A DNA stretch of 62,639 nucleotides, filler included, from Asterionella formosa (lineage: Eukaryota): assembly GCA_002256025.1 (NCBI GenBank). It is 11 parts of 11 records of this genome, joined end to end, with 100 filler letters (N's around TTAATTAATTAA, not from the genome) between each part and the next. Parts side by side here need not be neighbours in the genome. Positions count along the whole stretch, not along the records: positions 28,539 to 34,141 come from NKIB01012992.1; positions 34,242 to 39,844 come from NKIB01012993.1; positions 39,945 to 45,544 come from NKIB01012994.1; 8 more parts are not named here. The stretch is one strand, 5' to 3'. This document shows positions 28,991 through 45,544 of this stretch, one piece after another (the first letter of the stretch is position 1; each line of letters opens with the position of its first letter). The notes beneath the pieces were generated by a model that worked only from the letters and a program-made list of their open reading frames with translations, had not been told where the DNA came from and searched no databases. The translations under genes and the position numbers were made by a program.

Positions 28991-30894
28991 GGAAAATTTT
29001 AACATTAATGAAAAATGCAATATTTTTATTAGACTACTTCTAGAAATAAATAGTATGATTACTATTCGGGAATTAATTAGTTTTCAACTCAATTTGATGC
29101 TGTGGTGGTGGCTGATCACCAGGCTGTGTATGTAGAACTACTGTCACATGCATACAAACTATTGGTACAACCAGCCATGGGAGGCATGCTAGAAAACCCC
29201 TTCGAATGTGTTCATCTATTTATTACTGATTTCAAGGTTTTAAACTCTGGCGCATTTTTTGATTGTTGAATTGAAACAAGCTTTCTGGATTCTTAATCAC
29301 CATGTCATAAATATTTGTCACTGACAAGGGTCCACCATTTGTTGCAAACTGATAAAGCAGGTTGGGTAAAAACATGATTCTTTGAATGATTTAGGAGATA
29401 ATTGAACTCCATAAGCCAATCATTGATTGTCTTCCTCCTCAACAACGGGCTTCATGAGCGATGCAAGTACATGTAGCTAAACTCACAATCTGCGAGATTA
29501 TTCATACTAGCTAGACGAAGTATGAATAAATCTACTTGAATGTTAACATCAAATTTCTGATTTTGAATTTTGAATTCTAATGAATTGTCATTAGTTATTG
29601 AGATGAGCAAGGGAATTATTTTTGTTCAAGCAGCCGAGCAAAGAGTGCATGACCTATGGTACAGTATGTACCACGCTAGATCCACTATATCATTAGATGG
29701 TATAAGTCCTATATAACGTTAACCTTATAGAGTCTTCTATACAGACCATATACTTGTTTACTCTCACTGTTGAGATTTAAACAATACACACTGTGTATGT
29801 ATACCACGTCAACCCTTAGTGAAAGGTGTACCCTTTTACATTACGCACACGACTACCATGGAACCCATACGTAGTACATATACATGTACACGAGAGTGAT
29901 CATGATTAGTACGTGATGCTATACACACGGTTACTAGTATGTAGCTCGTAGTACAAATTGCATTAGTACCCGCAGCTATATGTTACGTGATAACTATTGG
30001 TACAGATGTATCTCTAGAATAGACGTACCAATGCTAGGCTAAAACATGACACCTAGCATGGACTCTTGACACCTAGTATATGCCCTTCTCATCAAGACCC
30101 TTGTGAGTCCCCTTGGACTAGGAGCTAATATAGATACACTCATCATTATGCTCATAATTACCCAGAACCTACTTGTTGAATCCTGACAACCGTAGGGCAG
30201 TGCATTGGTTGGTAAATATTGTCAAAAAATTTCAACAGAGAAAGTAGTACTGACACTGCAAATAGCTAGCAATTTAAAATTCATAAATTATTTCATCTAC
30301 ATTCTATCATTTGGTTGAGGTAGAAATGAAGTGATGGTAAGTCGTAATTTACAGATTGTGTGTATCATACATAGTAATAATAAATTTTTTCCTCCTGGAA
30401 TGTATTATCAGTACTTTCTGTATTACGTATAGATGGGTGTTGTCCGCCAAAGGTAGAAGTCAGCCATTCTCATGTGTACATTTTGTACCGGCCAGTTTTT
30501 AGATGTCGGTTTGACCTAAATTCAGGGTGTGAAGAAGTAGTCTGCAAGTAAAGTTTTGGGAGCATAAAGTTCGGTTTGTTACTATGCATACGACTACGAC
30601 AGACAAGTACTGCTAGCTACAAGCTATATTTTTTGTGCTGACTATATAAAATACAAAATACTATCACTTGCCTTCATAGTTACTTAAAGCTAACCTAATA
30701 TAGGATAACAGAGGTATTTATGTGAGAATTACTACTTGTAGCTAACCTTATTTAGAACAACAGAGCTATTTTTGTGTATTACTAATAATTAAATGTATTT
30801 TAATGGAACTAAATATGAATCCTAACTAATATGTCCATTTTATAAATTCTTGTTTACATTTTGTGCATCACACATATTGGCCACTATTCCAGCA

Positions 30895-32754
30895 TCAGAC
30901 ACCAAAATCTGCAGGGACTGAACCAGCAAATAAATTGTTGCTCAATGATAGTTTTTTGAGAGTTGTGTCAAGTCCAGGCCATATCTCAGCTGGCACTGTT
31001 CCTGTGAATGTATTATTGGACAAATCTAGAGAATTGAGACTTGTCAAGAGTCCAATCTCTGAGGGAAGTGAGCCAGTGAAAGTATTGATGTGAAAAGATA
31101 AAGAAGATAGACTTGTCAAAAGTCCAATCTCTGTTGGAAGTGTGCCATTGAAGGTATTGATGCCCAAATATAGATCAGTGAGACTTGTCAAGAGTCCAAC
31201 CTCTGTGGGAAGTGTGCCATTGAAAGTATTGTAAGACAAATCTAGATAATTGAGACTTGCCAAGAGTCCAATCTCTGTGGGAAGTGTGCCAGTGAAAGTA
31301 TTGTAGGACAAAGATAGACCAGTGAGTCTTGTCAAGAGTCCAATCTCTGTGGGTAGTGTGCTAGTGAAAGTATTGGAGAAAAAAGATAGAACTGTGAGAC
31401 TCATCAAGTGTCCAATCTCTGTGGGAAGTGTGCCAGTGAAAAAATTGTAGGAAAAATCTAGATGAGTGAGACTTGTCAAGTGTCCAATCTCTGTGAGAAT
31501 TGTGCCACTGTATTTATTCTGGTTCAAATTTAGATAATTGAGACTTGTCAAGAGTCCAATCTCTGTTGGAAGTGTGCCAGTGAAAGTATCAGACAAATCT
31601 AGAGTAGTGAGACTTGCCAAGATTCCAATCTCTGGCGGAAGGGATCCATTAATTTGAGAAGAATCAGGGTACAAAAATGTGATATCATTCCCATCATTGC
31701 AACGAATGTAATCCCATTTACAAAAATCGTATTTAGAAACAGTTCCATTATCTTGTAACCATGATTGGTTTGAAAGAAGATCACCAGTCGCATAATTGAA
31801 GACTGCCAATGCAAAAAATTGTGACAAAGTATAGTCTCTGACACTATTATATAATGGCGACTGCTCCAACCATGTCAGTGCCTTTTGTTGTGAGGAGCCA
31901 GTAGTTGAAAGTGCTGTTCCATTATCCCGTGATTTTTCAGCCAAGAACAAAAACAAACTTTGAGACGGGCTTGCTGATGGAGATTCTGATGGAGCCAATG
32001 TTTTGAGTAATGGTTCTGGTTTTGTGAGCTGAATGGGAATAGCAATGATGGCAAGTAAGATGCCAATCACCAAAATAATCACCAAGGTATTTCTCAGTTG
32101 ACGCCGACACTGTGCTTTTCCTTCTGCTTCATGGTCAATAATAGAGGCATTGGCAATTTCTGGATCATCGACAAGAACAGCATTGAATAGTGTTGCAGGT
32201 TCCAGCTGTTCATGTTCATCCTGAACCTCGTTGGTGGCAAGAGCAGTGGCGACATGCAAAAAGAAATCATCGCGTGGAATGACTGCTGGTCCTCTTACTG
32301 AAAATGCACCAGGACGACCTTGCAGCAGTGATGATTCTGTCACAACATCTCGAGGTGAAACTGCTCTTGATAAGACGGCTGGAACAAATATATCAGACGA
32401 ATCGTTGTCAAATTGAGGCACAACTGCGTGTATCTCCTGCCATGTAGTGTTGGCTTCCTGGTCTCGTTCTTCCACTTTCGCCTCCTCTGCAAACGGGATT
32501 TCTTTGCTGGATCCAACATAATTTTCTTTCCTGGCTTCTTGAAGGAGCATTGCTACCGAATCCTCTAATGCAGTGGCTTCCATCTCTTCCTCTTTGGCCT
32601 CTTCTGCAAACCGATGAGCATTGATGAGAGCTTTCGAATGAGTTCCTTCTTGGAGAGTCGCTTCATTGGAACCTCCACTGTAAAGGTCGTTGGGTGCCTT
32701 CTTCTTCCCTCCTCCTGTATCATCATTCTTCTTGTTATTGTTGCTTGACGACAT
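30895..32754 (-). CDS. Type II membrane LRR protein (about 10 plant-type 24-aa LRRs)
   Basis: Acidic N-terminus with PGAFSV, TM helix, S/P stalk, SSQQKALTW...CKWDYIRC N-cap, GTLPTEIGLLTSL repeats, EIWPGL cap. Confidence 0.9.
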   Translation of the reverse strand: MSSSNNNKKNDDTGGGKKKAPNDLYSGGSNEATLQEGTHSKALINAHRFAEEAKEEEMEATALEDSVAMLLQEARKENYVGSSKEIPFAEEAKVEERDQEANTTWQEIHAVVPQFDNDSSDIFVPAVLSRAVSPRDVVTESSLLQGRPGAFSVRGPAVIPRDDFFLHVATALATNEVQDEHEQLEPATLFNAVLVDDPEIANASIIDHEAEGKAQCRRQLRNTLVIILVIGILLAIIAIPIQLTKPEPLLKTLAPSESPSASPSQSLFLFLAEKSRDNGTALSTTGSSQQKALTWLEQSPLYNSVRDYTLSQFFALAVFNYATGDLLSNQSWLQDNGTVSKYDFCKWDYIRCNDGNDITFLYPDSSQINGSLPPEIGILASLTTLDLSDTFTGTLPTEIGLLTSLNYLNLNQNKYSGTILTEIGHLTSLTHLDFSYNFFTGTLPTEIGHLMSLTVLSFFSNTFTSTLPTEIGLLTRLTGLSLSYNTFTGTLPTEIGLLASLNYLDLSYNTFNGTLPTEVGLLTSLTDLYLGINTFNGTLPTEIGLLTSLSSLSFHINTFTGSLPSEIGLLTSLNSLDLSNNTFTGTVPAEIWPGLDTTLKKLSLSNNLFAGSVPADFGV

Positions 32755-33983
32755 GATCTTGATATGAACGGTACATAAGTGAAACCAGAATTAAGGTTGA
32801 CTCCCTGCAGTTTCCCAAAATATTTTCATATAATGAACCTCAATCAACACAAAATTCACGTGTATGATGTAATATGGAGCACTTGTCATTATGGATAGGA
32901 TTTTTGATCCCCTATGTCGCCTACGGGAACGTCATGTCGCCTTTTATTGTTTGGTGAAGCGATTATTTTAGTTTCTCAACTTTTCTGATAGTCGACTAAT
33001 TTAGCAAGCATTCTTTTCCCGCCCTGCTTCTTTGCCTGAACCTCTTGACGACTCAGCATGACTGGTAGGTAATCAATATTATGTGAATGGCTTACGTTTG
33101 TTTACAAGAGCAAATCTCATCCAGAATAATGGCTAATTAAGATGATCTTATTGCTAGAATAGAAACAGCTAATCCGCTAGGGAATAGTGGAAACACTATA
33201 TTTATAGAAGCTATATCTACTGCACGTCATTGGCGAGAGCTTGTCCCTCTAGAAAACGTGAATTTCGGTTGATTGTTGGATTTCAGCCGCCCAACACGAC
33301 TGCATGGGACAGTTCTCGTCCAAATCTACGACCCTCGTCTCTTCCCCCATGATGCACAGGAAACCCTTGTCCCACCCTTTCCAACATTGACCTAATTCTT
33401 GAATATTTTGCTGCCTCATGATTCCTTGAAATCCACCATGTCACATGCGGCGCGCTGATTGCTGACTATTTCTTCCTGCCTTCAGTTTGATGTCCCCCAT
33501 TAAGTCGTCTCCCCGGCCGTTCCTCCTCCACAGTTGCATCATACGATTTGGTTACAAGAGAAACGACAGGACATTAGAGCAAATAACAATCAACAGTTAC
33601 AACGATGATTGTGATGGTCCTGATTTTAGACAAGTTCCCATGGAACCTTTTCATACACGACCAAGATCCATCCTGTGTATTCTATAAAATAGTTTATTAG
33701 GAATAGAAATATCTATACCGGCATAATTATTAATAAATTTTGTTCCTTATACACCGGTAATGGTATACACAAAAGCCCTTTCATCACTACATCACTTACA
33801 GGTCCAGATATGGTATCTAATGAAATGATATTGCAGACAAGCAAACATTTAAGGTTCCTTTTTTCATTTCAACCCTAGTTTAGAGGTAGGGTTAAAAATA
33901 TAATATTGAGTCAGAGTAATTAAACATACACTTCGTAGGAGTAAAACATAAAAATATACACCCTTTCCATTTATGCTTACTGT

Positions 33984-34141
33984 ATGGCACCATTGCAGAT
34001 CATTATGGCCACTGAACATGATTTCATGTTATTTCAACCAGAAGATGATAGTGGATGGTCATGTGGACCATTTACAATTGTGAAAGTATTGAAATCTCTA
34101 TTGCAACTAGTAGAGAAGAAAGGCAAAACCAAATTTCTTGG
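33984..34141 (+). pseudogene. Fragment of transposon-borne Ulp1/C48-like protease
   Basis: FQPEDDSGWSCGPFTIVK, homologous to 48830-48965. Confidence 0.55.
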
Positions 34142-34241
34142 NNNNNNNNNNNNNNNNNNNNNNNNNNNNNNNNNNNNNNNNNNNNTTAATTAATTAANNN
34201 NNNNNNNNNNNNNNNNNNNNNNNNNNNNNNNNNNNNNNNNN

Positions 34242-35594
34242 TTCAACAGTTAAATTTTCATATCGATGCATCCTCTTGTATGCTATGCCGCCTCTTGTTC
34301 ATTATATGCATGAGTTCTATATATTCATCATCGTCGGTCACTGACCATGTCGACTTTCATCTCATCTCCTGATGATGATGATGATGACATTATGATCACA
34401 TTGCTACTGTTAGCAATGTGCTATCCACCAGTAAATAGGACGCCATCATTCAGGGAAAGTTTGACTGTTGATGAGGTCAGAAGAAGAAGTGGCAAAATCC
34501 GTCGCCACGCACTACAGCATCCATTATCGAGTCCATTCTGGACTTTGTTCAACAGCAAGCATGATGATGCTCTGATTACCTTGTGTGGGTTTGACCATGC
34601 TTCTTTCGAGCTCCTACACCAGCTGTTCAAACCTTGTTTTTATTCCTTCACTCCCTGTAGGAAAAATACGGATTTCATTGTTAGAAATTCAACAACAAAG
34701 AAAGGTCGGCAAAGATACCTCTGTTCCATCAGTTGTCTAGCGCTTTCGGCGAAGTGAAGGTCCTGTCCGTTCTTTGTCTGGGAAATTCTCGTTGTGCTGT
34801 GATGCAACAACTTCCCATTCATGGGACCCAATTGGCAGGTGAGTAGAAATGGTTTCCAGCAATGAGAGAATCTCATTGATCCTGAACTGTTGACCCCGAC
34901 TCTGCATGCTTTGGCGAGCTCTTGGAAACGTTGGTGCTCGCCTGGCAGTTGCCGTTCTTGAAACTGAACTATTAGGAGCACGTGAAAAATCGTTGTTTTT
35001 CCTTGATGGGGACTGAGTAACCCCAGAAACACCAATCTGAGAAACACCTGGGACACCCATCCTACTGTCCTCATCGTCACTGGCAAACTCATCAGCACCA
35101 GTGTCATCTTCATTCTCATCGTTGTCCTCCTCCTCTTCTTCTGGTTGAGTCTGTTCTTGTTGTTCTTGTTGCTGGTGACGGCGACGTTCAAGCAGCCTTG
35201 GAGAGGAAGGGAAGCCCTCCCTGGCTGCTCTCCTTTGACCAGAAGAAGATGAAGACATGGCCGAAATCTAAAAGCAATGACGATCGATTTATTGAGGAGG
35301 TTGATTGATATGTAACGATATGCATATGCATATGCATACCCATTTTGGCACGAGCAAGCCATTTTGAGTATGAGCAAGCAAGTCTTGAAATATTCTGGGA
35401 AATTCTATATAGTCATTCATGTCTAAACATCTTTTTATATAATGCACTGTCATTTATAACTGTAAAAAATTTGTGTTTGTGTTGACCAAATTTGGTAATC
35501 CTGGTAAGCACCCAACAAATTTTGGGGTTATGGGTACAACGATTTGTGTTATAATACACGTGATATAATAATTTTTTATTATCAGAGTGCGCCC
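34242..35594. mobile_element. Internally deleted PIF/Harbinger: transposase N-terminus (+, 34347-34740) fused to convergent Myb-like gene (-, 35258-34740)
   Basis: Both ORFs are cut at the same junction near 34740. Right terminus ...GAGTGCGCCC at 35594 is homologous to the 18865 end. Confidence 0.75.
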
Positions 35595-35804
35595 AATATC
35601 ATTTTTGTTTCTTTCAAATGGAACTCTATCAATCTGGTGCTGATTCCTTTTGAATTCGAATATTCAAATGGACACTCAAATCATGGGAGTTCTTAGTAGA
35701 AAACTCCCTATTTCACCCTGCTTTACAACCCTAACCCTAACCCTAGCGATATTCTCTCCAAACTAGGGTTAAGCCGGGGCCACAAACTTTAATGATTACC
35801 GGTA

Positions 35805-36360
35805 TATAGTACCAACTTCATGACTTGATTCTTCATGATTTACAGAACCAATTTCATGACTTGATTCTACATCATTAACTGCGTACCCCATCTTTAACAT
35901 GAATTGATTCTGCATTATTTACTACATATCAACTTCATGACTTGATACGTGCCAAATTCATGACTTAATTCTTCATGACTCACTATGTATCAACTGCATA
36001 ACTTGACTCTTCATGATTTACTGGCTTGATTCTCAATGATTTGCAGTACCAACTTCACGACTTGATTCTCCATGATTAATATTACCAACTACATGACTTG
36101 ATTCTCCATGATTAATATTACCAACTACATGACTTGATTCTCGCTGATTTTCAGTACTAACTACATGACTTGATTCTTCATGATTTACAGTACTAACTTC
36201 ATGACTTGATTTATTGCGTGACCCATCTTAAACATGACTTGATTCTTCATGATTTACGTACCAACTTCATGTTTTGATTCTTCATGATTTACTATGTACT
36301 TACTTCATGAGTTGATTCTTCATGACATATTACGTGCGCACCATCGTCATGCCTTGATTT
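35805..36360 (+). repeat. Minisatellite of about 36 bp (TACCAACTTCATGACTTGATTCTTCATGATTTACAG), roughly 15 degenerate copies
   Basis: Tandem periodicity directly visible. Confidence 0.9.
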
Positions 36361-36559
36361 TCAGCAGGCAGGTGCAAGAATAAACTATCGGTAATCCTGT
36401 ATTTCTACTCTACATACAGTAATGAGAATTTTTTGCTTATTCTGTTACAAAAAATACACACGTGATGCTTTCATATGCTGTTTATAAATCAAATCCATTC
36501 TGCCTATAAGTTTGAAACAGTCTGTAAAGAAAAAGAACATCTGAGAAAACAAAACTCAA

Positions 36560-38563
36560 ATGAATATTAGAAACACAATCATTGATGTGGCATTGGCCCT
36601 ACTCTTGGCTCAAGCTACTGCAAAACAAAAGTTGGTAAGTTCAATATTATACTTTATTTCTTTTTACTGTCAGTTTGCCAAAACAAGAATTAACATTCTT
36701 TGTGGTTTTCTTGTCTAGCCCATGATCAAGCCAACCGTCAAGCCAACTAGGTTTCCTACCTTCCGGCCCACAAGCAAACCAACCACCAAGCCAACCAAGT
36801 TTCCTACTGTCAAGCCAACGAAAGAGCCAACAAGGGTTCCTACCATCAAGGCAACAACAAAGCCAACTAGTTTTCCTACCATAAAGCCTGAGAGCAAGCC
36901 AACTAGGTCACCTACCATCCAGCCCACAAACTCCAGCTCGCTTCAAAGTTTGTTTTTGTTTTTTTCTGGACATTCAATGGACAATGGAACAGCACTTTTA
37001 ACTCCTGGCTCCTCACAGCAAAAAGCATTGGCATGGGTGCAGACTTCAACAAGACTATATAATAGTACCAGAGACTATATTTTGTTGCAATACTATGCCT
37101 TGGCTGTGATATATTATTCAGCTGATTCTGATACTCAATCTGATTTGCGAAATTGGTTGACAATTGGATATCAATTTTGTGACTGGTTGTCTGTTGGCTG
37201 CAATAACAAAAGGACAGCTATCACCTCAATTCTGCTAGATACTGTTCCTTTTTATTTTGATGGATCCATTCCGCCGGAGATTGGATTGCTGACAAGTCTC
37301 ACTGGTCTAGGCTTGTCTGACAATACTTTTAAAGGGACACTTCCCACAGAGATTGGACTCTTGACAAGTCTCACTTATCTTTTGTTGAACTCCAATGATT
37401 TTACTGGCACACTTCCCACAGAGATTGGACTCTTGACAAGTCTCACTGATCTATATTTGTACAACAATCATTTCAATGGTACACTTCCCACAGAGATTGG
37501 ACTCTTGGACAGTCTCAAGGAAATAAATTTGTACGGAATGGGTTTCATAGGCACACTTCCCACAGAGATTGGACTCTTGAAAAGTCCCACTTCTCTTTTG
37601 TTGGACTTCAACTCTTTCACAGGTACACTTCCCACAGAGATTGGACTCTTGACAAGTCTAACATATCTATCTTTGAATAGCAATACTTTCAAAGGCACAC
37701 TTCCCACAGAAATTGGATACTTCACAAGTCTCACGCGTCTGTTCTTAGGCCCTAATATCTTCACTGGCACACTTCCCACAGAGATTGGACTCTTGACAAG
37801 TCTCGATACTCTATATTTGTCTTACAATACTTTCACTGGCACACTTCCCACAGAGATTGGACTCTTGACAAGTCTCACTGAACTACATTTGGACAACAAT
37901 CATTTCAATGGTACAATTCCCACAGAGATTGGACTCTTGGCAGGTCTTTTTATTCTAAATTTGGACAGCAATGGTTTCAATGGTACACTTCCCACACAGA
38001 TTGGACTCTTGACGAGTCTTGAATATCTATCATTGATTTCCAATACTTTCAGAGGCAAGGTTCCCACAGAAATTGGACTCTTGAAAAGGCTTAATTATCT
38101 TTTACTCACTTATCTTGGTTTTGACTCCAATGCTTTCACTGGCACATTTCACACAGAGATCGGAAGTTTGAAAAGTCTTACTATTCTATCTTTGAGCTCC
38201 AATACTTTCAATGGAAAACTTCCCTCAGAGATTGGACTCTTGACAAGTCTGCTTTATTTAGATTGTTCATTTAATTCATTCTCAAATACATTGCCAGCTG
38301 AGATATGGCCTGGACTTGGCTACAGTCTCCAAACACTAAAATTGAGCAACAATTCTTTTGCTGGTAATGTACCTGCAGATTTTGATTTTCCTGGTTCATG
38401 TGGCAATGGTCAAGTAGGCAATGGAAAGTGCTCAAATCCCAAAGTTTGTTGCAGCATTTTTGGTTGGTGTGCCATTGGTCATGCCTGGTGTTCAGGTGAT
38501 TTCTCCCTTCGTGGAGGAAGGCTCAACTCTATGGTGGCAGTTAATTCCACCGGAGCAAACTAG
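36560..38563 (+). CDS. Secreted LRR protein: signal-peptide exon (36560-36634), intron 36635-36718, PT-rich stalk, about 15 LRRs, C-terminal hevein/CBM18-like chitin-binding domain
   Basis: MNIRNTIIDVALALLLAQATA signal; GTAAGT...TCTAG phase-0 intron in frame; PTxKPT repeats; CGNGQVGNGKCSNPKVCCSIFGWCAIGHAWC. Confidence 0.88.
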
Positions 38564-38789
38564 AAATCTGTTAGGGATATGGCAAAGGGACAACGCCTCT
38601 ATTTAGGGTTAGGGCAAAGGGACGACTCCTCTAGGCGCCATCCCTATAGAGCATCCAGCCCCATTGGGGCTGGGCATGTATCTGTAGCGCACAGTATGAA
38701 GAATTTATAGATGGAAACTGGTATGAGAATGAATGTGTTAGTATCGGTCTTTTTTGTTGGATATGAAGATGATGTAGAAGTGCACTGTG

Positions 38790-38813
38790 TTAGGGTTAGG
38801 GTTAGGGTTAGGG
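38790..38813 (+). repeat. Interstitial telomeric (TTAGGG)4; also (TTAGGG)2 at 38603-38614
   Basis: Direct sequence. Confidence 0.95.
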
Positions 38814-38871
38814 TATGTGTGAGGGCTACAATGACTATTATCCAAGCGACGATGGGGTGACTACTTAAGTT

Positions 38872-38928
38872 GCCAAAAAGTAATGAGACTAATGTTACTT
38901 TTCGCCTGAAGGGGCTTCATCAGTTGGC
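38872..38928 (-). ncRNA. Type I hammerhead ribozyme
   Basis: Minus strand GCCAA CUGAUGA a GCC ccuuca GGC GAA A AGUAA cauuagucuca UUACU U U UUGGC. All core nucleotides and stems I, II and III are present. Confidence 0.85.
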
Positions 38929-38951
38929 TTGAATCTGTAGTCTTGTTTTAT

Positions 38952-39780
38952 TTAAGTCATGGTGTGTGCGGGGGGTTGGGCAGGTGTGGTTGGCTGTGAA
39001 ATTACACCAGGAGTGGAGGCTGTATTGATAGTAGGAGGGGAAGGTAGCATGGACCTCGTAGAGGTTGATGTATCCCGTGTAGTATCAAGTTGTATCGTAA
39101 GTAAGTGAGTACTTACTGAAGTGGTGTCCGATCTTAATTTCCGTGGTGATGTATAATTCCCAATGTTTTTAGGGCGATTATAAGCGATTATCAACCGTTG
39201 AATGGTACATAGTTTTCCGGAGAAGTTCCGTAGGGTGGTAAGAATTGGTTCTTTACCCGGGGAGAGTATAGTGTCTCTGAAAATTTGTTGAATGTAAGAT
39301 GAGGGGGGATTGTTCGGATGAAATGGCATGTGGAGGAACACGCATTGTTCTGTATGTGTGTCTGTTCTCTGAGTGGCCGTGTTGGTTTTGTTCGATTTGT
39401 TAACATATAGCTGTTTGATGTATGTGTTAAAAATGGGTAAAAGGGTTTTATCCGAATAACCTCGGACTTGTAGGCGTTTGTAAAAAGAATGGATTGCAGT
39501 TTTGAAATGTGTGTCAATTGTTGTTAGATGGTAGATCCGGTGAATCATTCCAGCGATAAGACCGCGAAGGACACCAGGAGGGTGTGCACTATGTTGTGGT
39601 ATATAGAGATAGGGATTCAAGGATTTTTCAAAAAGTGTCGTATCAATAGAACGGGTATGTTTATTGATAGAGATTGTGAGATCCAGGAAAGTTGTAGATA
39701 ACTGTCGTGGTTCTGCATTCCATTTAAGTATGCCAAAGGTATTCATCGAGTTGAGAAACGAGTTGTGTGTTTTGTTATCT
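38952..39780 (-). mobile_element. 5'-truncated endonuclease-deficient Penelope-like retroelement (RT thumb/C-terminus)
   Basis: FLDLTI...LFEKSLNPYLYIPQHSAHPPG...LQVRGY and IAYNRPKNIG motifs; no GIY-YIG domain. Frame is open up to the telomere junction. Confidence 0.85.
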
Positions 39781-39844
39781 GGTTAGGGTTAGGGTTAGGG
39801 TTAGGGTTAGGGTTAGGGTTAGGGTTAGGGTTAGGGTTAGGGTT
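39781..39844 (+). repeat. Terminal telomeric array (TTAGGG)n
   Basis: About 10 perfect repeats running to the contig end. Confidence 0.95.
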
Positions 39845-39944
39845 NNNNNNNNNNNNNNNNNNNNNNNNNNNNNNNNNNNNNNNNNNNNTTAATTAATTAA
39901 NNNNNNNNNNNNNNNNNNNNNNNNNNNNNNNNNNNNNNNNNNNN

Positions 39945-41047
39945 TTCTTGTGGGCTGCTGCATGACCAGTATTCCAAACCATCTTTCTCCACCAATTTAA
40001 GGCCGATTTCTATCCAGCATAGTATTCGATGTACACGAGAGCATTGCCGGCATTTCGAATATCGATATTCTCAGAACGAACATATATTGATTCAATTGGT
40101 CATCAGGATGTGAAATAAATTTTCGTTGTTTGTGGACTGATCATAACCAGTACTGTGGCAACAAAACTTCCATACCTCCTTTCTCCACCAATTTAAAGCC
40201 GACTTTTATCCAACATAGTATTTGATGTACATGAGATCATTGCTGTCATTTTGAACGTCGATATTTTCAGAACGAACATATATTGATCAAAGGAGACGTC
40301 AGGATTTGTAAATTTGCTGTGCTTGTGGACTGATCATCAGCGCTTTAAGGCTGATTTCTATCTAGAAAAGTATTCAATGTACACGAGATCACCGCCGTCA
40401 TTTCGGATATTGATATTCTCAATACGAACCTATATTGATCAAATTGGTCATCATGATTGTGTGTAAAATTTCGGTGCTTGCTGTGGACTGCTGCATGACC
40501 AGTGCGGTTGCAACAAATATTCCAAACCATCTTGCTCTGCCATTTTAAGGCTGAATTCTATCCAGCATAGAATTAGATGTCCACGAAATCAATGTCGTCA
40601 TAGCCAATATCGATATTCCGAGAACAAACATATATTGATCAAAGGAGGCATCAGGATGAGTAAAATGTTCGGTTGCTTGTGGACTGATCATCAGTGCTGT
40701 GAAAACAAAACTTCCAAACCATCTTTCTCCACTAATTTAAGGCCGATTTCTATCCAGCATAGTATTCAATGTACACGAGATCAATGCCGCCATGGCGAAT
40801 GTTGGTTTTCTGAGAACAAACATAAAAGGAGGTATCAGGATGTGTAAATTTTGTAATTTTTCGGTGATGGTGGACTGATATGATCAATGCTGTAGAAACG
40901 AAAATTCAAAACCATCTTTCTCCACCAATTTAAGGCTGATTTCTATCCAGAATAGTATTTAATGTACAAAAGATCAATGCCGTCAAGGCGAATGTCGATA
41001 TACTCATAATGAACATATATTGATAAAAGGAGGCATCAGGATGTGTA
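39945..41047 (+). repeat. Tandem repeat of about 190 bp, about 6 diverged copies
   Basis: Recurrent CCAAACCATCTTTCTCCACCAATTTAAGGCCGATTTCTATCCAGCATAGTATT... near 39974, 40170, 40345 (partial), 40523, 40715 and 40907. Confidence 0.88.
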
Positions 41048-41591
41048 GATGGCGATTGCGGCACTTCTCATTTTTGATTTACTACCATACTAGGATGTGC
41101 TAGTATGCCATGATGAGTACATTAGCAGGGGCGCAGACATGCAATGCTCAACGATGCTCAACGTGTACCAACGGTGCTTTATTTCCAATCTGGCAGGCTA
41201 TTGTAATCTCTACAATCAACAATGACTTAATAATGTATCTACAACATCAACTACTACTACGTGTGCTGAATTCTACTATGTGAATCTTCCTCTTGCATGT
41301 GTTATTCTTTGCCAGTTCAAATCAAAGAAATATGTCGTAGCAGAAAAAATAATAAGTGAATCGGAATTGGCGGCTCTTTCGTTCATTATATGGTGAAAGC
41401 ATCCCAAAACTGCCATCACACAAATTTGGCGGCCTCCTGCCATTGTTATTAAAGGTTTGTGAAGTGACAAAAAAGACGCTCCTTCCCCCATTGTACCAAG
41501 GAACAATCACAGGTGATTCAACACCGCTTCACCATAGGCGCTGCCCACAAAACAGTCGAGCATACGCAGATTCCTGTGGCTACCAGGCAAA

Positions 41592-43885
41592 GTCTGCAAA
41601 TAAAAACTATCATATTTCCATGATGCATCATAGGATTGTGATCATCTGATCATAATTTTTCGTTATATCATCTAATACTTTTGATAAATGCCTTTGTAAT
41701 TTAAATAGTAACCCTTTTGACTACATATATTTAATTATTATATCAATTGTTTCTATTTGATTCCTGTATTCGAATTTCTTGGTAGGATAATGTACCAGTT
41801 CAAGTAATGTAATTTTGCTCGTCATTTCTATCCGTCATCACTCCGATTTTTGCAACAACAACGAAATACTAGCAATGACAAGCGGAATGACTGTTTGCGA
41901 TAACGTCTTCAATTTATTGGTCAAGTGATCTTTATATCTTCGAGTAATCGTCATGTGCAGTGAACCTTTGTTCATAATCATTCAATTAAGAGTTTACAGG
42001 AGAGAAGAAACCATTCGAACTCGTAATGTTTCCGCACACAGCGCACAAAGTATATCCGTTTCGTCCACTTCAGCATGACAATCTCGCCAATCAACCCGTA
42101 AACAAACACATTCTACCGGTACTTGTTCTCGTTGACATTTTCAATTCTCACATGATACTACATCTACTATTGAGATTCAGCATAGAAAGAGATAAGAAAA
42201 TGTGCGTAACAGACTACTGTCCACATAGCTATAGTTATAGAATGATTCTGATTAGAATGTATTTCATTTTCATATCGCTCGCTCGTTTCTGCATTTGGTA
42301 TACTGTACTTGAATTAACTATTGAACTTGTCCGCATCTTTGATACCATCAAGCAAGAGAGCGAAAGCAAGTGGCTCTTTTCATTATTGTTTGCTCGTTGG
42401 AAGAATTTGATATCTGTCTCGTCATTTGCTTGTTGGAATTGTCCGTTGCCTCAAACTTGCTTGGCGTGTGCGTGCACACACTGTCGACTTGTTTACAATG
42501 GTATGTTGTTCTTGTATTCACTGTTGAACATGTCCGCATCTTTGTTACCATCAGTAGAGCGACAAGTGGGTCTTTTCATTGTTGTTTGCTCCTGTAAAAG
42601 TCGGTGTCCGTGTCATCCTCATCAAAAGAGAGACAAGTTCTTTCGTTGGAAAAATTGGTACCGTATCATCATTCTCTCGTTCAAACCACTGTCCGTTGCC
42701 TCAAACCTGATTAGCGTTTGAGTACCAGTACCCGGTATGTGCACTGTCGACTTTAGTACATTACAGGCGGAGTGACTTTGCTACTAAATTGCGTGATATT
42801 ATAATATACCCTGTACCGGTAGCACGATGCAGAATACAGTTGCTTCCCAATCATCTCATCATGATTGATAAGATGATACTGTGATATCATGATAAGGTTA
42901 CATCGATACATACATCACCAAAGTATGATACGTAATATTGAATAAAGTACATCACATAGCTATGATACATTGATCATAAAATTATGATGATTTTATGAAA
43001 TGTATACGATATAATTTTGATCAAAATATGATCATGTAAAAATAGTACAATGACAATAAAATACAATAAAATATGTACGCAAGTGTTACCAAGACATCAT
43101 AGAATATAAATAAAGCAATCATAAAGTATGTTAATTAATATATATGTTTGTCGTTTAATATATACAGTTAAAGTCAACAGTTAATATGATAGTATTATAC
43201 AGTGGATAGGATCTAAGTATACGGATGCGTTGATATGTACATCACTATAATATGATTTGTGATATGGATTGATGCATATCACATACCGGTATCCTCAACA
43301 ACCGGCCATCACATTAATTGTCATGTCGTCTTTCCTTGTCTTAGCTATATATATGCCGGCATGTGTATTGTGTAAACACTACGCTGGCGGAACATTGATA
43401 TTACGCTGTGCTCTGTTCAACAATTACTACACTCGGTTACCATCACACCAGTTCCATCTCCACAAGCACTGCAATAAGCTCCATGAAAAGCTCCGCGTTT
43501 CCCTTCCACTGTTTTACATCATTGTCTTCTGGCCCTTCGACAACTTTCCAAATGGCATTTCATGGATTTCATGGAAAGGATCAGTCAAACAAGAAACGAG
43601 ACTTACTTCCATTGTTTACACTACACGACTTTATGTTTTCGGAAAAGAAGATGAAGAAAGTTATGAAATCAATCGAAGATTCCTTTGAATACACTCAAAG
43701 ATCAAATGAATTTGAACAGATTCATAATACTCCAGAAAAAATAATGAAGTATGCTGATACAATAGTGGCTGAGATTGAAAAGAAGGAAAGATTGCTTTTG
43801 AAGAGGAAACCCAAACAGTTGGTCTTCGTGGATGAAGACTCTATTCATACAGAGTCACAGTTCCACCATCCAGTGTCGTATTTTA
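41592..43885 (+). mobile_element. CGTCTG-TIR element (end B) with protease-gene 5' region, truncated at the junction with an LRR gene
   Basis: GTCTGCAAATAAAAAC terminus; 42300-43885 is the reverse-complement homolog of about 49555-51090. Confidence 0.7.
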
Positions 43886-45544
43886 CTCAATCTCTGTGGG
43901 AACTGTGCCAGTGAAAGCATTATTGCTCAATCCTAGACCAGTAAGACTTGTCAAGAGTCCAATCTCTGTTGGAAGTGTGCCAGTCAAATTATTTTTGCCC
44001 AATCCTAGATCATTGAGACTTGTCAAGAGTCCAATCTCTGTGGGAAGTGTGCCATTGAAAGCATTGATGCTCAATTCTAGACCAGTGAGAGTTGTCAAGA
44101 GTCCAACTTCTGTGGGAAGTGTGCCAGTGAAAGCATTGATGCTCAATTCTAGACCAGTGAGACTTGTCAAGAGTCCAACTTCTGTGGGAAGTGTGCCATT
44201 GAATGCATTGATACTCAATCCCAAACTGGTGAGCTTTCTCAAGAGTCCAATCTCTGTGGGAAGTGAGCCTGTGAAAGCATTGAGGCTCAAATCTAGATGA
44301 GGAAGACTTGTCAAGAGTCCAATCTGTGTGGGAATTTTTCCAGCAAAAGTATTGTTGCCCAATCCTAGATGATTTAGACTTGTCAAGAGTCCAATCTCTG
44401 TGGGAAGTGTGCCAGTGAAAGTATTGATGTACAAATATAGACCAGCAAGCTTTGTCAAGAGTCCAATCTCTGTGGGAAGTGTTCCATTGAATATATTGTC
44501 ATACAAATATAGTGTAGTGAGATTTGTCAAGAGTCCAATCTCTGTGGGAAATGTGCCAGTGAAAGTATTGCTGGACAAACCTAGATCAGTAAGACTTGTC
44601 AAGAGTCCAATCTCTGTGGGAAGTGTTCCATTGAATTTATTGTCATACAAGTATAGTGTAGTGAGACTTGTCAAGAGTCCAATCTCTGTGATAAGTGTAC
44701 CTGTGAATGTATTATCATACAATGGTAGAGAAGTGAGACTTGTCAAGAGTCCAATCTCAGGGGGAAGGGATCCAACAAGTTGAGAAGAAGAAGGGTTCAA
44801 ATCTGTGATATCTGTCTGACTGTTACAAATAATGAAGTTCCATTCACAAAAATTGTATTGAGGAAAAGTTCCATTATTTTGCAACCATGATTTGCTTGAA
44901 ATTGTTTCGCCAGTTGCATAATAAAAAACCGCCAAGGCATAGAATTGCAACACAATATAGTCTGTGGTAATATTAAATACTGACGACTGTTCCACCCATG
45001 TCATTGCCTTTTGCTGTGAGGATCCATTAGTTGAAAGTGCTGTTCCATTATCAAAGGAATGATCAGCCAAGAACCCAAACAAACGTTTAGAAGGGCTTGC
45101 TGATGGATTATTTGATGGTGCCAATGATGAGATACTGGATGGATTTTCTGATGGTGCCAATGATGAAATAATGGATGCATTTTCTGATGGTGCCAATGAT
45201 GGAATACTGGAGGAATTATCTGATGGTGGCAATGATAGAATACTAGAACCTGTTGGTGGTGATGTAGGAAAAGGTGTTGATTCGGGGTTTTTTTGGCTTT
45301 TAATCATGAAAAAAACAATAATGTACACAATTATGCCGATCACCACAGTTGTTGCCAAGACTACTATCATTTGACGTCGACACTGGGATTTTCCTTCTGC
45401 TCTCTGGTCAACAATAAAGGCACTTGCAATTTCAGGATCATCCACAAGAATAGCATTGAGCATTGTTGCTTGTTCCAGCTGGCCATTTTCATCCTGCACC
45501 TCGTTGGTGGTGAGAGTGGTGTTGACATGCAAAAAGGTATCATC
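43883..45544 (-). CDS. Type II membrane LRR protein (12 LRRs), 5'-partial, C-terminal cap replaced by transposon sequence
   Basis: Paralog of 30895-32754 (NEVQDE...VDDPEIA...CRRQ-TM, SSLAPSEN 33-nt repeats, LRRs). Stop codon supplied by transposon DNA. Confidence 0.85.
   Translation of the reverse strand, partial: DDTFLHVNTTLTTNEVQDENGQLEQATMLNAILVDDPEIASAFIVDQRAEGKSQCRRQMIVVLATTVVIGIIVYIIVFFMIKSQKNPESTPFPTSPPTGSSILSLPPSDNSSSIPSLAPSENASIISSLAPSENPSSISSLAPSNNPSASPSKRLFGFLADHSFDNGTALSTNGSSQQKAMTWVEQSSVFNITTDYIVLQFYALAVFYYATGETISSKSWLQNNGTFPQYNFCEWNFIICNSQTDITDLNPSSSQLVGSLPPEIGLLTSLTSLPLYDNTFTGTLITEIGLLTSLTTLYLYDNKFNGTLPTEIGLLTSLTDLGLSSNTFTGTFPTEIGLLTNLTTLYLYDNIFNGTLPTEIGLLTKLAGLYLYINTFTGTLPTEIGLLTSLNHLGLGNNTFAGKIPTQIGLLTSLPHLDLSLNAFTGSLPTEIGLLRKLTSLGLSINAFNGTLPTEVGLLTSLTGLELSINAFTGTLPTEVGLLTTLTGLELSINAFNGTLPTEIGLLTSLNDLGLGKNNLTGTLPTEIGLLTSLTGLGLSNNAFTGTVPTEIE

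What the first reader, a model, noticed from the sequence alone, without database searches (positions are those of the whole stretch)
30895..45544. LRR family with near-constant/hypervariable 72-nt cassettes: candidate diversifying receptor system
Seen: three genes on separate contigs (30895-32754, 36560-38563, 43883-45544) with about 10, 15 and 12 repeats. About 40 nt of each repeat (GGCACACTTCCCACAGAGATTGGACTCTTGACAAGTCTCACT) is nearly invariant, even at synonymous sites and between genes. The x positions of xLxLxxNx vary in almost every repeat. Known: those x residues form the ligand-binding concave face; lamprey VLRs and Ectocarpus ROCO LRRs diversify by repeat shuffling. Inference: the constant blocks act as homology handles for unequal crossover or gene conversion, generating a recognition repertoire (immunity, mating or adhesion) in a diatom.
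Basis: partly seen in the sequence, partly recalled or inferred. Interest (0 to 1): 0.72.

Follow-up and report, generated by a model that had tools for sequence, protein, structure and literature searches.

The report
Fast-evolving diatom surface LRR gene family
Three genes of a freshwater diatom encode cell-surface leucine-rich-repeat proteins whose repeats keep a fixed framework and change fast at the exposed binding positions, which is the usual way such receptor-like families evolve and shows no sign of a programmed, antibody-like diversification system.

Summary
Three separate assembly contigs each carry a plant-type 24-residue LRR gene, with 10, 15 and 12 to 13 units. The 42-nt block occurs 20 times at 3 or fewer mismatches, against 0 expected.

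The real contrast is 17 scaffold codons against 7 exposed x codons, not a 40-nt constant half against a 32-nt variable half. The scaffold's synonymous conservation is real but modest:
- Scaffold dS is about 0.23, against 0.24 to 0.79 in the non-repeat parts of the same genes.
- Codons for the same residue are identical in 586 of 684 scaffold cases and 697 of 884 non-LRR cases.

The x codons are near saturation (dN about 1.0). In the 15 closest unit pairs they show 44.5 nonsynonymous and 6.5 synonymous differences. An AlphaFold model (pLDDT 92.6) puts x15 and x17 in the concave beta-strand, and the best structural matches are plant LRR receptor ectodomains.

In-register duplicated units, differing unit counts and position-conserved edge units point to ordinary unequal crossover. 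A recombination test found no mosaic signal, and strain variation could not be tested.

Verdict: a young, expanding receptor-like surface family under diversifying selection. It is a new member of a known kind, and a VLR-like programme is not supported.

The parts
30895..32754 (-). g1: complete 619-aa ORF. It has an acidic N-terminal region of about 222 aa with no known domain, one hydrophobic segment, a Ser/Pro linker, a helical cap domain, 10 LRR units and a C-terminal cap unit.
   Evidence: ORF list. Pfam LRR_14/LRR_1/LRR_8 only. RNA-library contigs match 31566-32736 with 0-5 differences (records 28-31).
32038..32088 (-). g1 hydrophobic segment TLVIILVIGILLAIIAI (aa 223-239), preceded by K..RR..R. 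Read as a signal anchor with the N terminus inside and the LRR outside (type II).
   Evidence: Located by regular expression. The orientation is inferred by eye from the flanking charges; no topology predictor was run.
31648..31959 (-). g1 N-terminal cap domain (aa 266-369), helical, with the conserved C..W..(I/V).C motif.
   Evidence: Alignment of caps from 8 genes. The model shows helices H3-78 followed by the first strands.
30931..31647 (-). g1 LRR array, 10 units. The first is 23 aa and the last is the divergent PAEIWPG unit.
36560..36634 (+). g2 exon 1: MNIRNTIIDVALALLLAQATAKQKL, which looks like a signal peptide.
   Evidence: Sequence read. It is followed by GTAAGT.
36635..36718 (+). g2 putative 84-nt intron (GTAAGT...TAG). 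It holds the in-frame stop seen when the gene is read straight through.
   Evidence: The splice is inferred from the consensus; no spliced read was seen.
36719..38563 (+). g2 exon 2: Pro/Thr-rich linker, cap domain (36947-37261), 15 LRR units and a Cys-rich C-terminal domain.
   Evidence: Pfam PT repeat plus LRR families.
37262..38356 (+). g2 LRR array, 15 units, with a 5-aa insertion after unit 12.
38399..38491 (+). g2 hevein-like (chitin-binding type 1) cysteine motif CGNG...CCSIFGWC...AWC.
   Evidence: Pfam Chitin_bind_1 E 6.9e-4, 20.3 bits, below the 27.8-bit cut-off. In PDB sequences the 10 best of 13 matches, and 12 of 13 overall, are named as agglutinin, hevein or small plant peptides, which I take from recall to be hevein-type; the remaining match is a spider toxin. 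Best E 0.05. Weak.
43883..45544 (-). g3: 553 codons open to the piece end, so the 5' end is cut. Same architecture as g1, with hydrophobic segment 45302-45367, a 36-nt Ser/Pro repeat linker and cap 44774-45085. A stop falls inside unit 13, and no C-terminal cap is found within 480 nt downstream.
43910..44773 (-). g3 LRR array, 12 full units. A truncated 13th unit lies at 43886-43909.
38571..39844 (+). Chromosome-end region next to g2: a degenerate telomere-like 32-nt repeat, (TTAGGG)4 at 38790-38813, an ORF on the minus strand at 38955-39782, then (TTAGGG)10 at 39783-39842 running to the piece end.

Best explanation
These are three paralogues of a young, expanding family of diatom cell-surface proteins with plant-type 24-residue LRR ectodomains and no kinase domain. 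g1 and g3 are membrane-anchored by an N-terminal signal anchor. g2 is secreted, with a mucin-like linker and a possible chitin-binding tail.

The repeat framework (GTLPTEIGLLTSL..L.L..N.F.) is held by purifying selection on fold-forming residues. Its codons look constant mainly because the units and genes share recent ancestry. Ordinary unequal crossover or slippage within arrays, and perhaps some exchange between genes, adds a modest further homogenisation.

The seven exposed positions per unit lie in and around the concave beta-strand and the second short strand. They accumulate amino-acid changes faster than silent changes, which indicates diversifying selection for new binding specificities. 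The ligands are unknown. The most likely role is recognition of other organisms or cells, such as bacteria, parasites, mates or neighbours.

Shown: the anatomy, the fold, the rate contrast, the in-register duplications and the family's presence in several freshwater samples.
Inferred: membrane topology, ligand binding at the x face, the recombination mechanism and the biological role.
For: - **Anatomy and family.** Pfam gives LRR_14, LRR_1 and LRR_8 only, with no kinase. Of 120 listed homologues, the best named non-plant ones are diatom LRR proteins (Stephanocyclus, Cyclotella, Seminavis, Cylindrotheca), with LRR Pfam domains only in the diatom rows I looked at.
- **Fold.** The model has mean pLDDT 92.6 and pTM 0.90, with strands every 24 residues at unit positions 15-17 and 22-25 and a short helix at positions 5-9. 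The Foldseek top hits are the MIK2, ERL1, HAESA, BRI1, FLS2, PEPR1 and PGIP ectodomains, at E down to 1e-22.
- **Rate contrast.** Over 32 interior units, dN(x) is 1.02, dS(x) 0.64, dS(scaffold) 0.23 and dN(scaffold) 0.11. Bootstrap over units gives dN(x)/dS(x) of 1.08-2.44 and dN(x)/dS(scaffold) of 3.3-5.9.
- **Unsaturated check.** From 97 non-redundant units I took the 15 independent closest pairs. At x codons they show 44.5 nonsynonymous and 6.5 synonymous differences (pN/pS 1.8). Scaffold pN/pS is 0.81, and pN(x) over pooled pS is 3.1 (Fisher p 2e-5).
- **Codon positions.** Pairwise difference at x codon positions 1, 2 and 3 is 0.56, 0.63 and 0.40. At scaffold codons it is 0.10, 0.09 and 0.19.
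- **Young family.** Non-LRR dS between genes is 0.24-0.59. Cap-domain dS is 0.24-0.79 over 27 of 28 pairs; the 28th pair is allelic.
- **Array turnover.** Unit counts differ (10, 15, 12+). Near-identical units occur one unit apart (g3 u9/u10, 1 difference in 33 nt), two apart (g3 u2/u4, 2 differences) and six apart (g2 u3/u9, 3 differences), against a mean of 12.7. First units (GSLPPEIG, GGATC-) and last units (PAEIWPG) are conserved by position across genes, while interior units are not. Scaffold dS between units is the same within genes (0.24) and between genes (0.23), and is uncorrelated with cap dS (r 0.07, 28 pairs).
- **Family beyond the window.** An exact 23-nt piece of the block occurs in 17 metagenome contigs. 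Those long enough to compare are 69-77% identical to g1 outside the repeats, and none matches a window gene at 90% or more.
- **Expression.** Contigs of a polyA RNA library match g1's unique part with 0-5 differences over 269-340 nt each.
Against: - Positive selection is not proven. The x codons are near saturation, and NG86 is crude on 72-nt paralogous units. The x-only count in recent pairs is not significant on its own (binomial p 0.07). Ratios against scaffold dS would be inflated if scaffold silent sites are themselves constrained or homogenised. Choosing the closest pairs is a selected sample.
- The non-LRR parts also evolve fast (dN/dS 0.55-0.97). Some of the pattern may therefore be relaxed constraint in a family with many decaying copies. 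L004, L008 and L013 show frameshifts or stops, and g3 lacks a C-terminal cap.
- No direct evidence of recombination was found (PHI p 0.98 or more).
- No binding, localisation or topology data exist.
- It is not known whether the metagenome contigs are paralogues of the same species or genes of related species.
Confidence: 0.7

Rival explanations
1. Repeat-shuffling repertoire regime, as in fungal NLR genes with highly conserved internal repeats. The shared framework DNA lets units be exchanged often within and between family members, some of them subtelomeric. Recombination, and not only point mutation plus selection, is then the main source of new specificities, and arrays differ between strains.
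For: - Scaffold dS is flat (0.13-0.43) and unrelated to gene divergence (r 0.07).
- Unit divergence is equal within and between genes.
- For 11 of 34 units the nearest cassette lies in another gene.
- Single similar cassettes are flanked by unrelated ones (g2 u3/u9), and a two-unit block is shared by g1 u6-7 and g2 u8-9.
- Edge units escape homogenisation.
- g2 lies within about 1.3 kb of telomere repeats.
- Precedent: Paoletti et al. 2007 (PMC1805685, abstract read) and Dyrka et al. 2014 (PMC4986451, passages read).
Against: - PHI test gave no signal (p 0.98 or more).
- Distances in the constant and variable halves correlate (Mantel r 0.34, p 0.018), so units are largely inherited whole.
- Internal identity is only 64% in amino acids and 76% in nucleotides. 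The fungal survey uses a criterion of over 85% (PMC4986451 passage).
- The excess of identical codons is small (86% against 79%).
- Six allelic contig overlaps at 95.5-99.2% identity, three of them 250-700 nt long, show no 72-nt indels.
Confidence: 0.2
2. Programmed somatic assembly or diversification, like the lamprey VLR system. The genomic arrays would be substrates or donors for copy-choice rearrangement, producing different receptors in different cells.
For: Only the superficial likeness: LRR cassettes with a constant frame and variable faces.
Against: - g1 is a complete uninterrupted reading frame, g2 is complete once its one short putative intron is removed, and g3 is open up to the piece end. 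None has a non-coding intervening stretch within the array.
- No orphan cassettes flank them in the 5.6-kb pieces.
- RNA-library contigs match the genomic sequence of g1's unique part.
- A diatom is a single cell with no soma in which clonal selection could act (established knowledge).
Confidence: 0.02
3. The block is conserved for a function at nucleotide level. One example would be a shared target site for a small RNA that co-regulates the whole family, as miR482/2118 does at the P-loop codons of plant NLR genes (recalled). Another would be an mRNA structure.
For: - Some codons are fixed in every unit that has the residue (ACA 27/27 and 30/30, GGA 32/32, TTG 31/31, AGT 25/25).
- An exact 23-mer is shared with genes only 69-77% identical elsewhere.
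- Scaffold dS does not rise with gene divergence.
Against: - Other scaffold codons vary freely at the third base (Gly1 GGC 21, GGT 5, GGA 4, GGG 1; Leu13 CTC 19, CTT 8, CTA 3, CTG 1).
- Conserved residues outside the block keep their codons as well.
- The overall excess is small.
- No small-RNA data were examined.
Confidence: 0.05

Closest known systems
Plant LRR receptor-like proteins and kinases with plant-specific 24-residue LRRs (MIK2, FLS2, BRI1, HAESA, PGIP; Cf-9/Cf-4-type RLPs recalled)
   Same: - The 24-residue unit has consensus L..L..L..L.L..N.F.G.LP.E.G.
- Each unit has a second short strand.
- A helical N-terminal cap is present.
- The best structural matches have E down to 1e-22 and TM up to 0.81.
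- Exposed residues of the xxLxLxx strand are hypervariable with dN above dS, and unit number varies, as reported for plant R-gene LRRs (recalled).
   Different: - No kinase domain.
- g1 and g3 appear anchored by an N-terminal signal anchor (type II), not by a signal peptide plus a C-terminal helix.
- The Pfam LRRNT_2 cap is not detected in the window proteins.
- The framework is far more uniform from unit to unit than I recall for plant receptors.
- The organism is a diatom.
Diatom LRR protein expansions (Seminavis robusta, Cyclotella cryptica, Nitzschia putrida, Pseudo-nitzschia multistriata)
   Same: - Sequence homologues at 35-47% identity have the same LRR Pfam domains, in the diatom rows I looked at.
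- Secreted LRR proteins are the most common secretome class in N. putrida (PMC9054022, passages read).
- Two LRR receptor-like genes with Ka/Ks above 1 are reported in P. multistriata (PMC5485032, passages read).
   Different: In the papers found I saw no unit-level analysis separating framework codons from exposed codons in diatoms. The closest window relatives are unnamed environmental sequences at 47-57% identity.
Fungal NLR repeats with high internal conservation (Podospora het-d/het-e WD40 family)
   Same: - A constant repeat frame with a few surface positions under positive selection.
- Repeats as similar between genes as within them.
- Variable repeat number among family members (PMC1805685 abstract; PMC4986451 passages).
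   Different: - The repeats here are extracellular LRRs, not intracellular WD, ANK or TPR repeats.
- No NOD domain is present.
- Internal identity is 64% in amino acids, below the 85% criterion.
- Exchange between loci and strain polymorphism are not shown here.
Ectocarpus LRR-ROCO candidate receptors (Zambounis et al. 2012, PMC3341825)
   Same: Both are stramenopile genes with 24-residue, 72-nt LRR units and positively selected sites on the concave face (passages read).
   Different: There, each LRR is a separate exon shuffled between genes, and the protein carries ROC-COR GTPase domains. Here the units are contiguous in one exon, and no ROC/COR domain is found.
Lamprey variable lymphocyte receptors
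   Same: LRR cassettes with a variable concave face.
   Different: VLR germline genes are incomplete and are assembled somatically from flanking cassettes (recalled). Here g1 and g2 are complete germline genes, g3 is cut by the piece end, and no donor cassettes are seen.

Membership tests
Plant-specific-type LRR ectodomain (LRR receptor-like protein) | 24-residue unit with consensus LxxLxxLxxLxLxxNxLxGxIPxx | tested here: met
   Unit spacing is 24 in 31 of 33 steps between units in the three genes. The per-position consensus is GTLPTEIGLLTSLxxLxLxxNxFx. Pfam LRR_14, LRR_1 and LRR_8 all exceed their cut-offs.
Plant-specific-type LRR ectodomain (LRR receptor-like protein) | Solenoid fold with a concave beta-sheet and a second short strand in each unit | tested here: met
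   The model has pLDDT 92.6, with strands at unit positions 15-17 and 22-25. Top PDB matches are plant LRR-RK ectodomains and PGIP.
Plant-specific-type LRR ectodomain (LRR receptor-like protein) | Cysteine-containing N-terminal cap (Pfam LRRNT_2) | tested here: inconclusive
   PF08263 was not reported for the three proteins. However, a helical cap with conserved W and C..W..C columns is present in the alignment and the model.
Plant-specific-type LRR ectodomain (LRR receptor-like protein) | Single-pass membrane anchor with the LRR outside, or secretion | tested here: inconclusive
   One hydrophobic segment lies upstream of the LRR in g1 and g3, and g2 has an exon that looks like a signal peptide. 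Orientation was judged by eye only.
LRR receptor kinase | Cytoplasmic protein kinase domain | tested here: not met
   No Pkinase hit in any of the three proteins at E 0.01 or better. The g1 N-terminal 262 aa gave no usable hit in the protein atlas.
VLR-like somatic assembly system | Incomplete germline gene plus flanking donor LRR cassettes | tested here: not met
   g1 is a complete ORF, g2 is complete after removal of one putative 84-nt intron, and g3 is open to the piece end. No other 72-nt arrays or LRR motifs occur outside the genes in the 11 pieces.
Ectocarpus-type LRR-ROCO | One LRR per exon and ROC-COR domains | tested here: not met
   The units are contiguous in frame without interruption. 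No ROC/COR Pfam hit.
High-internal-conservation repeat regime (fungal NLR type) | Over 85% identity between repeats | tested here: not met
   Mean identity between the 32 interior units is 64% in amino acids and 75.7% in nucleotides.
High-internal-conservation repeat regime (fungal NLR type) | Concerted evolution within and between loci | tested here: inconclusive
   For: within-gene and between-gene unit divergence are equal, and scaffold dS is flat. Against: no PHI signal, and the codon excess is small.
High-internal-conservation repeat regime (fungal NLR type) | Positive selection at surface positions | tested here: met
   dN(x)/dS(x) is 1.6 (bootstrap 1.08-2.44). In recent pairs pN(x)/pS is 1.8-3.1. 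These are counting methods, not site models.
High-internal-conservation repeat regime (fungal NLR type) | Repeat-number polymorphism between strains | not testable with these tools
   Only short contigs of public runs were available, and they break inside the arrays. No whole genome is held.
Hevein / chitin-binding type 1 domain (g2 C terminus) | Match to Pfam PF00187 above the curated cut-off | tested here: not met
   20.3 bits against a cut-off of 27.8, E 6.9e-4. PDB hevein-type chains match at E 0.05 or weaker. This is a lead only.

The most novel reading that the evidence does not exclude
Diatoms may run a repeat-exchange recognition repertoire on their cell surface. This would be a large LRR family, partly subtelomeric, in which the shared framework DNA lets units move within and between genes. 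Each strain would then carry its own set of binding faces for telling mates, neighbours, bacteria or parasites apart. It would be a surface-LRR counterpart of the fungal NLR repeat-shuffling system.
Probability: 0.2. Interest if true: 0.6.

Novelty: new member of a known kind. Interest (0 to 1): 0.35.

Why it matters
Diatoms are major primary producers, and how they sense bacteria, parasites and mates is poorly known. Expanded LRR families are the main receptor candidates. This locus gives a clean example showing which seven positions per unit carry the variation, that the family is young and turning over, that one member sits at a chromosome end, and that at least one member is matched by contigs of a polyA RNA library. 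These points make good targets for binding, localisation and population studies. They do not reveal a new mechanism: framework conservation with a hypervariable face and unequal crossover is the known way LRR and other solenoid receptor families evolve.

Tried and rejected
- **Whole genome.** None is held, so the genome-wide unit census was not possible.
- **PHI-type recombination test.** On 32 units with 44 informative sites, neighbouring sites were less compatible than distant ones (p 0.98 to 1.0). Homoplasy in the hypervariable codons probably swamps the test. I count it as no evidence for mosaicism.
- **Neighbour-cassette test.** Overall r was -0.13. The 6 pairs with 5 or fewer differences have downstream neighbours at 9.2 differences against 12.6 overall. 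This is too few to use.
- **Read laying for strain variation.**
  - All four runs are contigs that break inside the arrays.
  - The joints listed within the array (for example 31247 to 31541, skipping 293 with 5 letters between) have sides of only 19 to 26 letters. They most likely join framework blocks of other paralogues, so they are no evidence of unit-number variation.
  - In the RNA run, the bins flanking g1 (28539-29473, 29848-30782, 32840-33026) had no depth while the DNA runs covered them.
  - The very high summed depth over the array (9373 RNA contigs laid) shows many similar units in the sample, but it is not a copy number.
- **Allelic contig pairs from different samples.** L001/L002/L016, L003/L005, L004/L012/L015 and L006/L017 are 95.5 to 99.2% identical.
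  - None shows a 72-nt indel in the overlaps, but three of the six overlaps are only 250-700 nt long.
  - Six differences in the L004/L012 LRR part are all nonsynonymous by my reading. L004 also carries frameshifts, so this may reflect decay.
- **Protein atlas on the g1 N-terminal 262 aa.** No usable hit.
- **The search of earlier findings.** Nothing by place, and by sequence only unrelated bacterial LRR islands.
- **Paper search for a Phaeodactylum LRR survey.** It returned only unrelated LRRK2 papers. The survey I recall (Schulze et al. 2015, Marine Genomics) was not seen.
- **DGR-type mutagenesis.** Not pursued, because this is a eukaryotic nuclear locus with no reverse transcriptase next to g1 or g3.

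Full report
**What the window is.** The 62,639-base window is not one locus. It consists of 11 assembly pieces of 5597 to 5609 nt, in descending length order, joined by N44-TTAATTAATTAA-N44 spacers. Pieces 6 (28539-34141), 7 (34242-39844) and 8 (39945-45544) each carry one LRR gene, and the other eight pieces carry none. The other pieces hold ordinary eukaryotic genes (Vps54, a fasciclin-domain protein) and transposase fragments. The Vps54 protein's named relatives are all pennate diatoms at 44 to 50% identity. The LRR proteins' best named non-plant relatives are diatom LRR proteins. Piece 6 is held by public runs labelled as algal, freshwater, lake and river metagenomes. I laid two freshwater runs from different studies, and they carry pieces of it with 0 to 12 differences per 170 to 350 nt, plus one 722-nt piece with 23 differences. 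The source is therefore most likely a freshwater diatom. I cannot show that all 11 pieces come from one organism.

**Checking the observation.**
- The quoted 42-mer occurs 20 times at 3 or fewer mismatches (6, 6 and 8 in the three genes), against none in 100 shuffles.
- TRF reports 72-nt arrays in exactly the three genes.
- In-frame extraction gives 10 units in g1, 15 in g2, and 12 plus a truncated 13th in g3. Spacing is 24 residues, except for a 23-residue first unit in g1 and a 5-residue insertion in g2.
- Over 32 interior units, amino-acid entropy is 2.1 to 3.1 bits at unit positions 14, 15, 17, 19, 20, 22 and 24, and at most 1.35 bits elsewhere.
- Several scaffold codons are fixed in every unit that has the residue (ACA 27/27 and 30/30, GGA 32/32, TTG 31/31, AGT 25/25).
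- The same residue uses different codons at different positions: Thr is ACA at positions 2, 5 and 11 but ACT at 14, 22 and 24, and Leu is CTT, CTC, TTG, CTC, CTA and TTG. The pattern therefore reflects common descent and not codon bias.

**Two corrections to the observation.**
1. The true contrast is 17 scaffold codons against 7 x codons.
2. 'Nearly invariant' overstates the case. Units differ by 5.3 of 39 nt in the block on average, against 12.7 of 33 nt in the rest. Mean identity between interior units is 75.7% in nucleotides and 64% in amino acids.

**Gene anatomy.**
- **g1 (619 aa, complete).** It has an acidic N-terminal region without any Pfam or atlas match. One hydrophobic segment is preceded by basic residues. 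After it come a Ser/Pro linker, a roughly 100-residue helical cap with a C..W..C motif, the LRR array and a divergent last unit (PAEIWPG...). I read this as a type II membrane protein with the LRR outside. That reading is by eye only.
- **g3.** It has the same plan but is cut at its 5' end by the piece boundary. It ends with a stop inside unit 13, and no C-terminal cap lies in the next 480 nt. It may be truncated.
- **g2.** It starts with a 25-codon exon that looks like a signal peptide, followed by a canonical 84-nt GTAAGT...TAG intron. Then come a Pro/Thr-rich linker (Pfam PT), cap, 15 units and a cysteine motif resembling hevein-type chitin-binding domains. That match is weak: Pfam gives 20.3 bits against a cut-off of 27.8, and PDB hevein or agglutinin chains match at E 0.05.
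- No kinase domain is present in any of the three.

**Fold.** I predicted a model of the g1 ectodomain from a 40-sequence alignment. It has mean pLDDT 92.6 and pTM 0.90.
- Model residue 129 is position 1 of unit 2.
- The periodic strands fall at unit positions 15-17 (x-L-x) and 22-25. A short helix falls at positions 5-9 (TEIGL).
- By established LRR geometry, x15 and x17 point into the concave face, x14, x19 and x20 border it, and x22 and x24 lie on the second sheet typical of plant-type LRRs.
- Foldseek's best PDB matches are plant LRR receptor ectodomains (MIK2, ERL1, HAESA, GSO1, BRI1, PEPR1, FLS2) and PGIP, at E down to 1e-22 and TM up to 0.81.

**Rates.** I used Nei-Gojobori counting on all pairs of the 32 interior units.

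| Codon class | dN | dS |
|---|---|---|
| x codons | 1.02 | 0.64 |
| scaffold codons | 0.11 | 0.23 |

- The values are the same within and between genes: scaffold dS is 0.24 and 0.23, and dN(x) is 0.97 and 1.05.
- Bootstrap over units gives dN(x)/dS(x) of 1.08 to 2.44 and dN(x)/dS(scaffold) of 3.3 to 5.9.
- The x codons are near saturation, so I also took the closest pairs among 97 non-redundant units from the window and 10 metagenome contigs. These were 15 independent pairs with 8 or fewer differences.
  - At x codons there are 44.5 nonsynonymous and 6.5 synonymous differences (pN/pS 1.8).
  - At scaffold codons there are 20 and 9 (0.81).
  - pN(x) over the pooled synonymous rate is 3.1 (Fisher p 2e-5).
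  - The x-only comparison is not significant on its own (p 0.07).
- First and second positions of x codons differ in 56% and 63% of unit pairs, and third positions in 40%. Scaffold positions differ in 10%, 9% and 19%.

Diversifying selection on the exposed face is therefore likely, but it has not been proven with site models.

**Why the scaffold looks constant.**
- The cap domains of the three genes differ by dS 0.35 (g1-g3), 0.75 (g1-g2) and 0.65 (g2-g3).
- In collinear alignments of g1, g3 and two metagenome relatives, non-LRR dS is 0.24 to 0.59 and non-LRR dN/dS is 0.55 to 0.97. Scaffold dS is 0.15 to 0.26.
- Over 28 gene pairs, scaffold dS (0.13 to 0.43) is unrelated to cap dS (0 to 0.79; r 0.07).
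- Among codons encoding the same residue, 586 of 684 scaffold codons and 697 of 884 non-LRR codons are identical (odds ratio 1.6, p 6e-4, pairs not independent).

Most of the silent-site constancy therefore reflects a young family. On top of that there is a modest, divergence-independent excess. It fits some homogenisation of interior units, or, less likely, a constraint on the nucleotides.

**Signs of array turnover.**
- Near-identical variable cassettes sit one unit apart (g3 u9/u10, 1 difference), two apart (g3 u2/u4, 2 differences) and six apart (g2 u3/u9, 3 differences), always in register. In the last case the neighbouring cassettes are unrelated. g1 u6-7 and g2 u8-9 share a two-unit block.
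- The nearest cassette is in the same gene for 19 units, in another gene for 11, and tied for 4.
- First units (GSLPPEIG, beginning GGATC) and last units are recognisable by position in all genes that have them, while interior units are not. This is the classical picture of unequal exchange homogenising the middle of an array.

Against a strong shuffling regime:
- A PHI-type test found no recombination signal (p 0.98 or more).
- Distances in the block and in the cassette are positively correlated (Mantel r 0.34, p 0.018).
- Allelic contigs from different samples show no whole-unit indels in their overlaps, three of the six overlaps being only 250-700 nt long.

**The family beyond the window.** An exact 23-nt piece of the block occurs in 17 metagenome contigs.
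- Those long enough to compare are 69 to 77% identical to g1 outside the repeats. None matches a window gene at 90% or more.
- After merging allelic contigs, they represent about nine further genes of both architectures, some with frameshifts or stops.
- Three of 11 near-random assembly pieces carry a member. This suggests a large family with birth and death of copies, but I could not count it.
- Contigs of a polyA RNA library from the same sample as the best DNA holder match g1's unique region with 0 to 5 differences per 269 to 340 nt (records 28-31). g1 is therefore probably expressed.

**Comparison with known systems.**
- **Fold and motif.** This is a plant-type LRR ectodomain without a kinase, so it is receptor-like-protein-like. 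It differs in having an apparent N-terminal anchor.
- **Evolutionary regime.** It matches what is described for plant R-gene LRRs (recalled). It also matches Ectocarpus LRR-ROCO genes (PMC3341825, passages read) and, most closely in logic, fungal NLR repeats with high internal conservation (PMC1805685 abstract; PMC4986451 passages). It fails defining features of each: the units are not exons, there is no ROC-COR or NOD domain, and internal identity is below 85%.
- **VLR.** It fails the VLR criteria: the germline genes are not interrupted and no donor cassettes are present.
- **Diatom literature.** Diatom LRR expansions and two positively selected LRR genes are in print (PMC9054022 and PMC5485032, passages read). 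My searches found no unit-level analysis in diatoms. One search returned 5 papers holding all three terms, and one search returned 301 holding three of four terms, of which 15 were listed.

**Verdict.** The locus is a young diatom surface LRR family with a purified framework and a fast-changing binding face, shaped by selection and ordinary unequal crossover. The 'homology handle' idea is plausible as a by-product but is not shown to be a system. I score it as a new member of a known kind, with interest 0.35.

Noticed in passing
window 38571-39844: g2 lies at a chromosome end. Its stop codon (38561-38563) is followed by a degenerate telomere-like 32-nt repeat, (TTAGGG)4 at 38790-38813, and a 276-codon open frame on the minus strand. 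That frame's protein-atlas look-alikes are rotifer and nematode clusters carrying PF26215 HTH_animal (score 0.95). (TTAGGG)10 then runs to the piece end. It looks like a retroelement inserted into or capped by telomere repeats, as I recall for telomere-associated Penelope-like elements.
   Followed up: partly
window 38399-38491: The C terminus of g2 has a hevein-like cysteine pattern (CGNG..C..CCSIFGWC..AWC). An LRR protein that binds chitin would be an unusual combination, but both matches are below threshold.
   Followed up: partly
window 43883-43909 and downstream: g3 stops inside its 13th unit (GTVPTEIE*) and has no C-terminal cap in the next 480 nt, unlike g1 and g2. It may be a truncated copy or have an unseen exon.
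   Followed up: partly
window 44427-44783 (+): A 118-codon open frame runs antisense through the g3 array. The repeat unit simply lacks stop codons in that frame, so this is probably meaningless.
   Followed up: no
unit position 24 in all three arrays: Position 24 alternates mainly between Thr (ACT) and Asn (AAT). Asn creates an N-G-T glycosylation sequon with the next unit's Gly-Thr, so a single base change toggles a potential glycan on the side of the solenoid.
   Followed up: no
window 45102-45244 and 36728-36930: The linkers between the membrane or signal segment and the cap are themselves short tandem repeats. g3 has a 36-nt Ser/Pro unit in 4 copies, and g2 has 36-nt and 48-nt Lys-Pro-Thr units. 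Relatives L003 and L005 differ upstream in this linker.
   Followed up: no
window 36025-36325 and 40344-41047: Two further tandem repeats of unknown meaning: a 36-nt unit in 8.4 copies just upstream of g2, and a 192-nt unit in 3.6 copies on piece 8.
   Followed up: no
window 13620-14294 (-), 56306-56941 (+), 45647-46258 (+): Transposon remains on neighbouring pieces: DDE_1 and DDE_Tnp_4 transposase fragments, and an ORF on piece 9 that by eye resembles the RNase H/integrase end of a copia-type element (no Pfam hit).
   Followed up: partly
L002, L008, L016 (metagenome contigs): The same roughly 1.4-1.8-kb non-LRR segment lies upstream of an LRR gene in L002 and downstream of an LRR array in L016 and L008. 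This suggests tandemly arranged family members or a repeated element between them.
   Followed up: no
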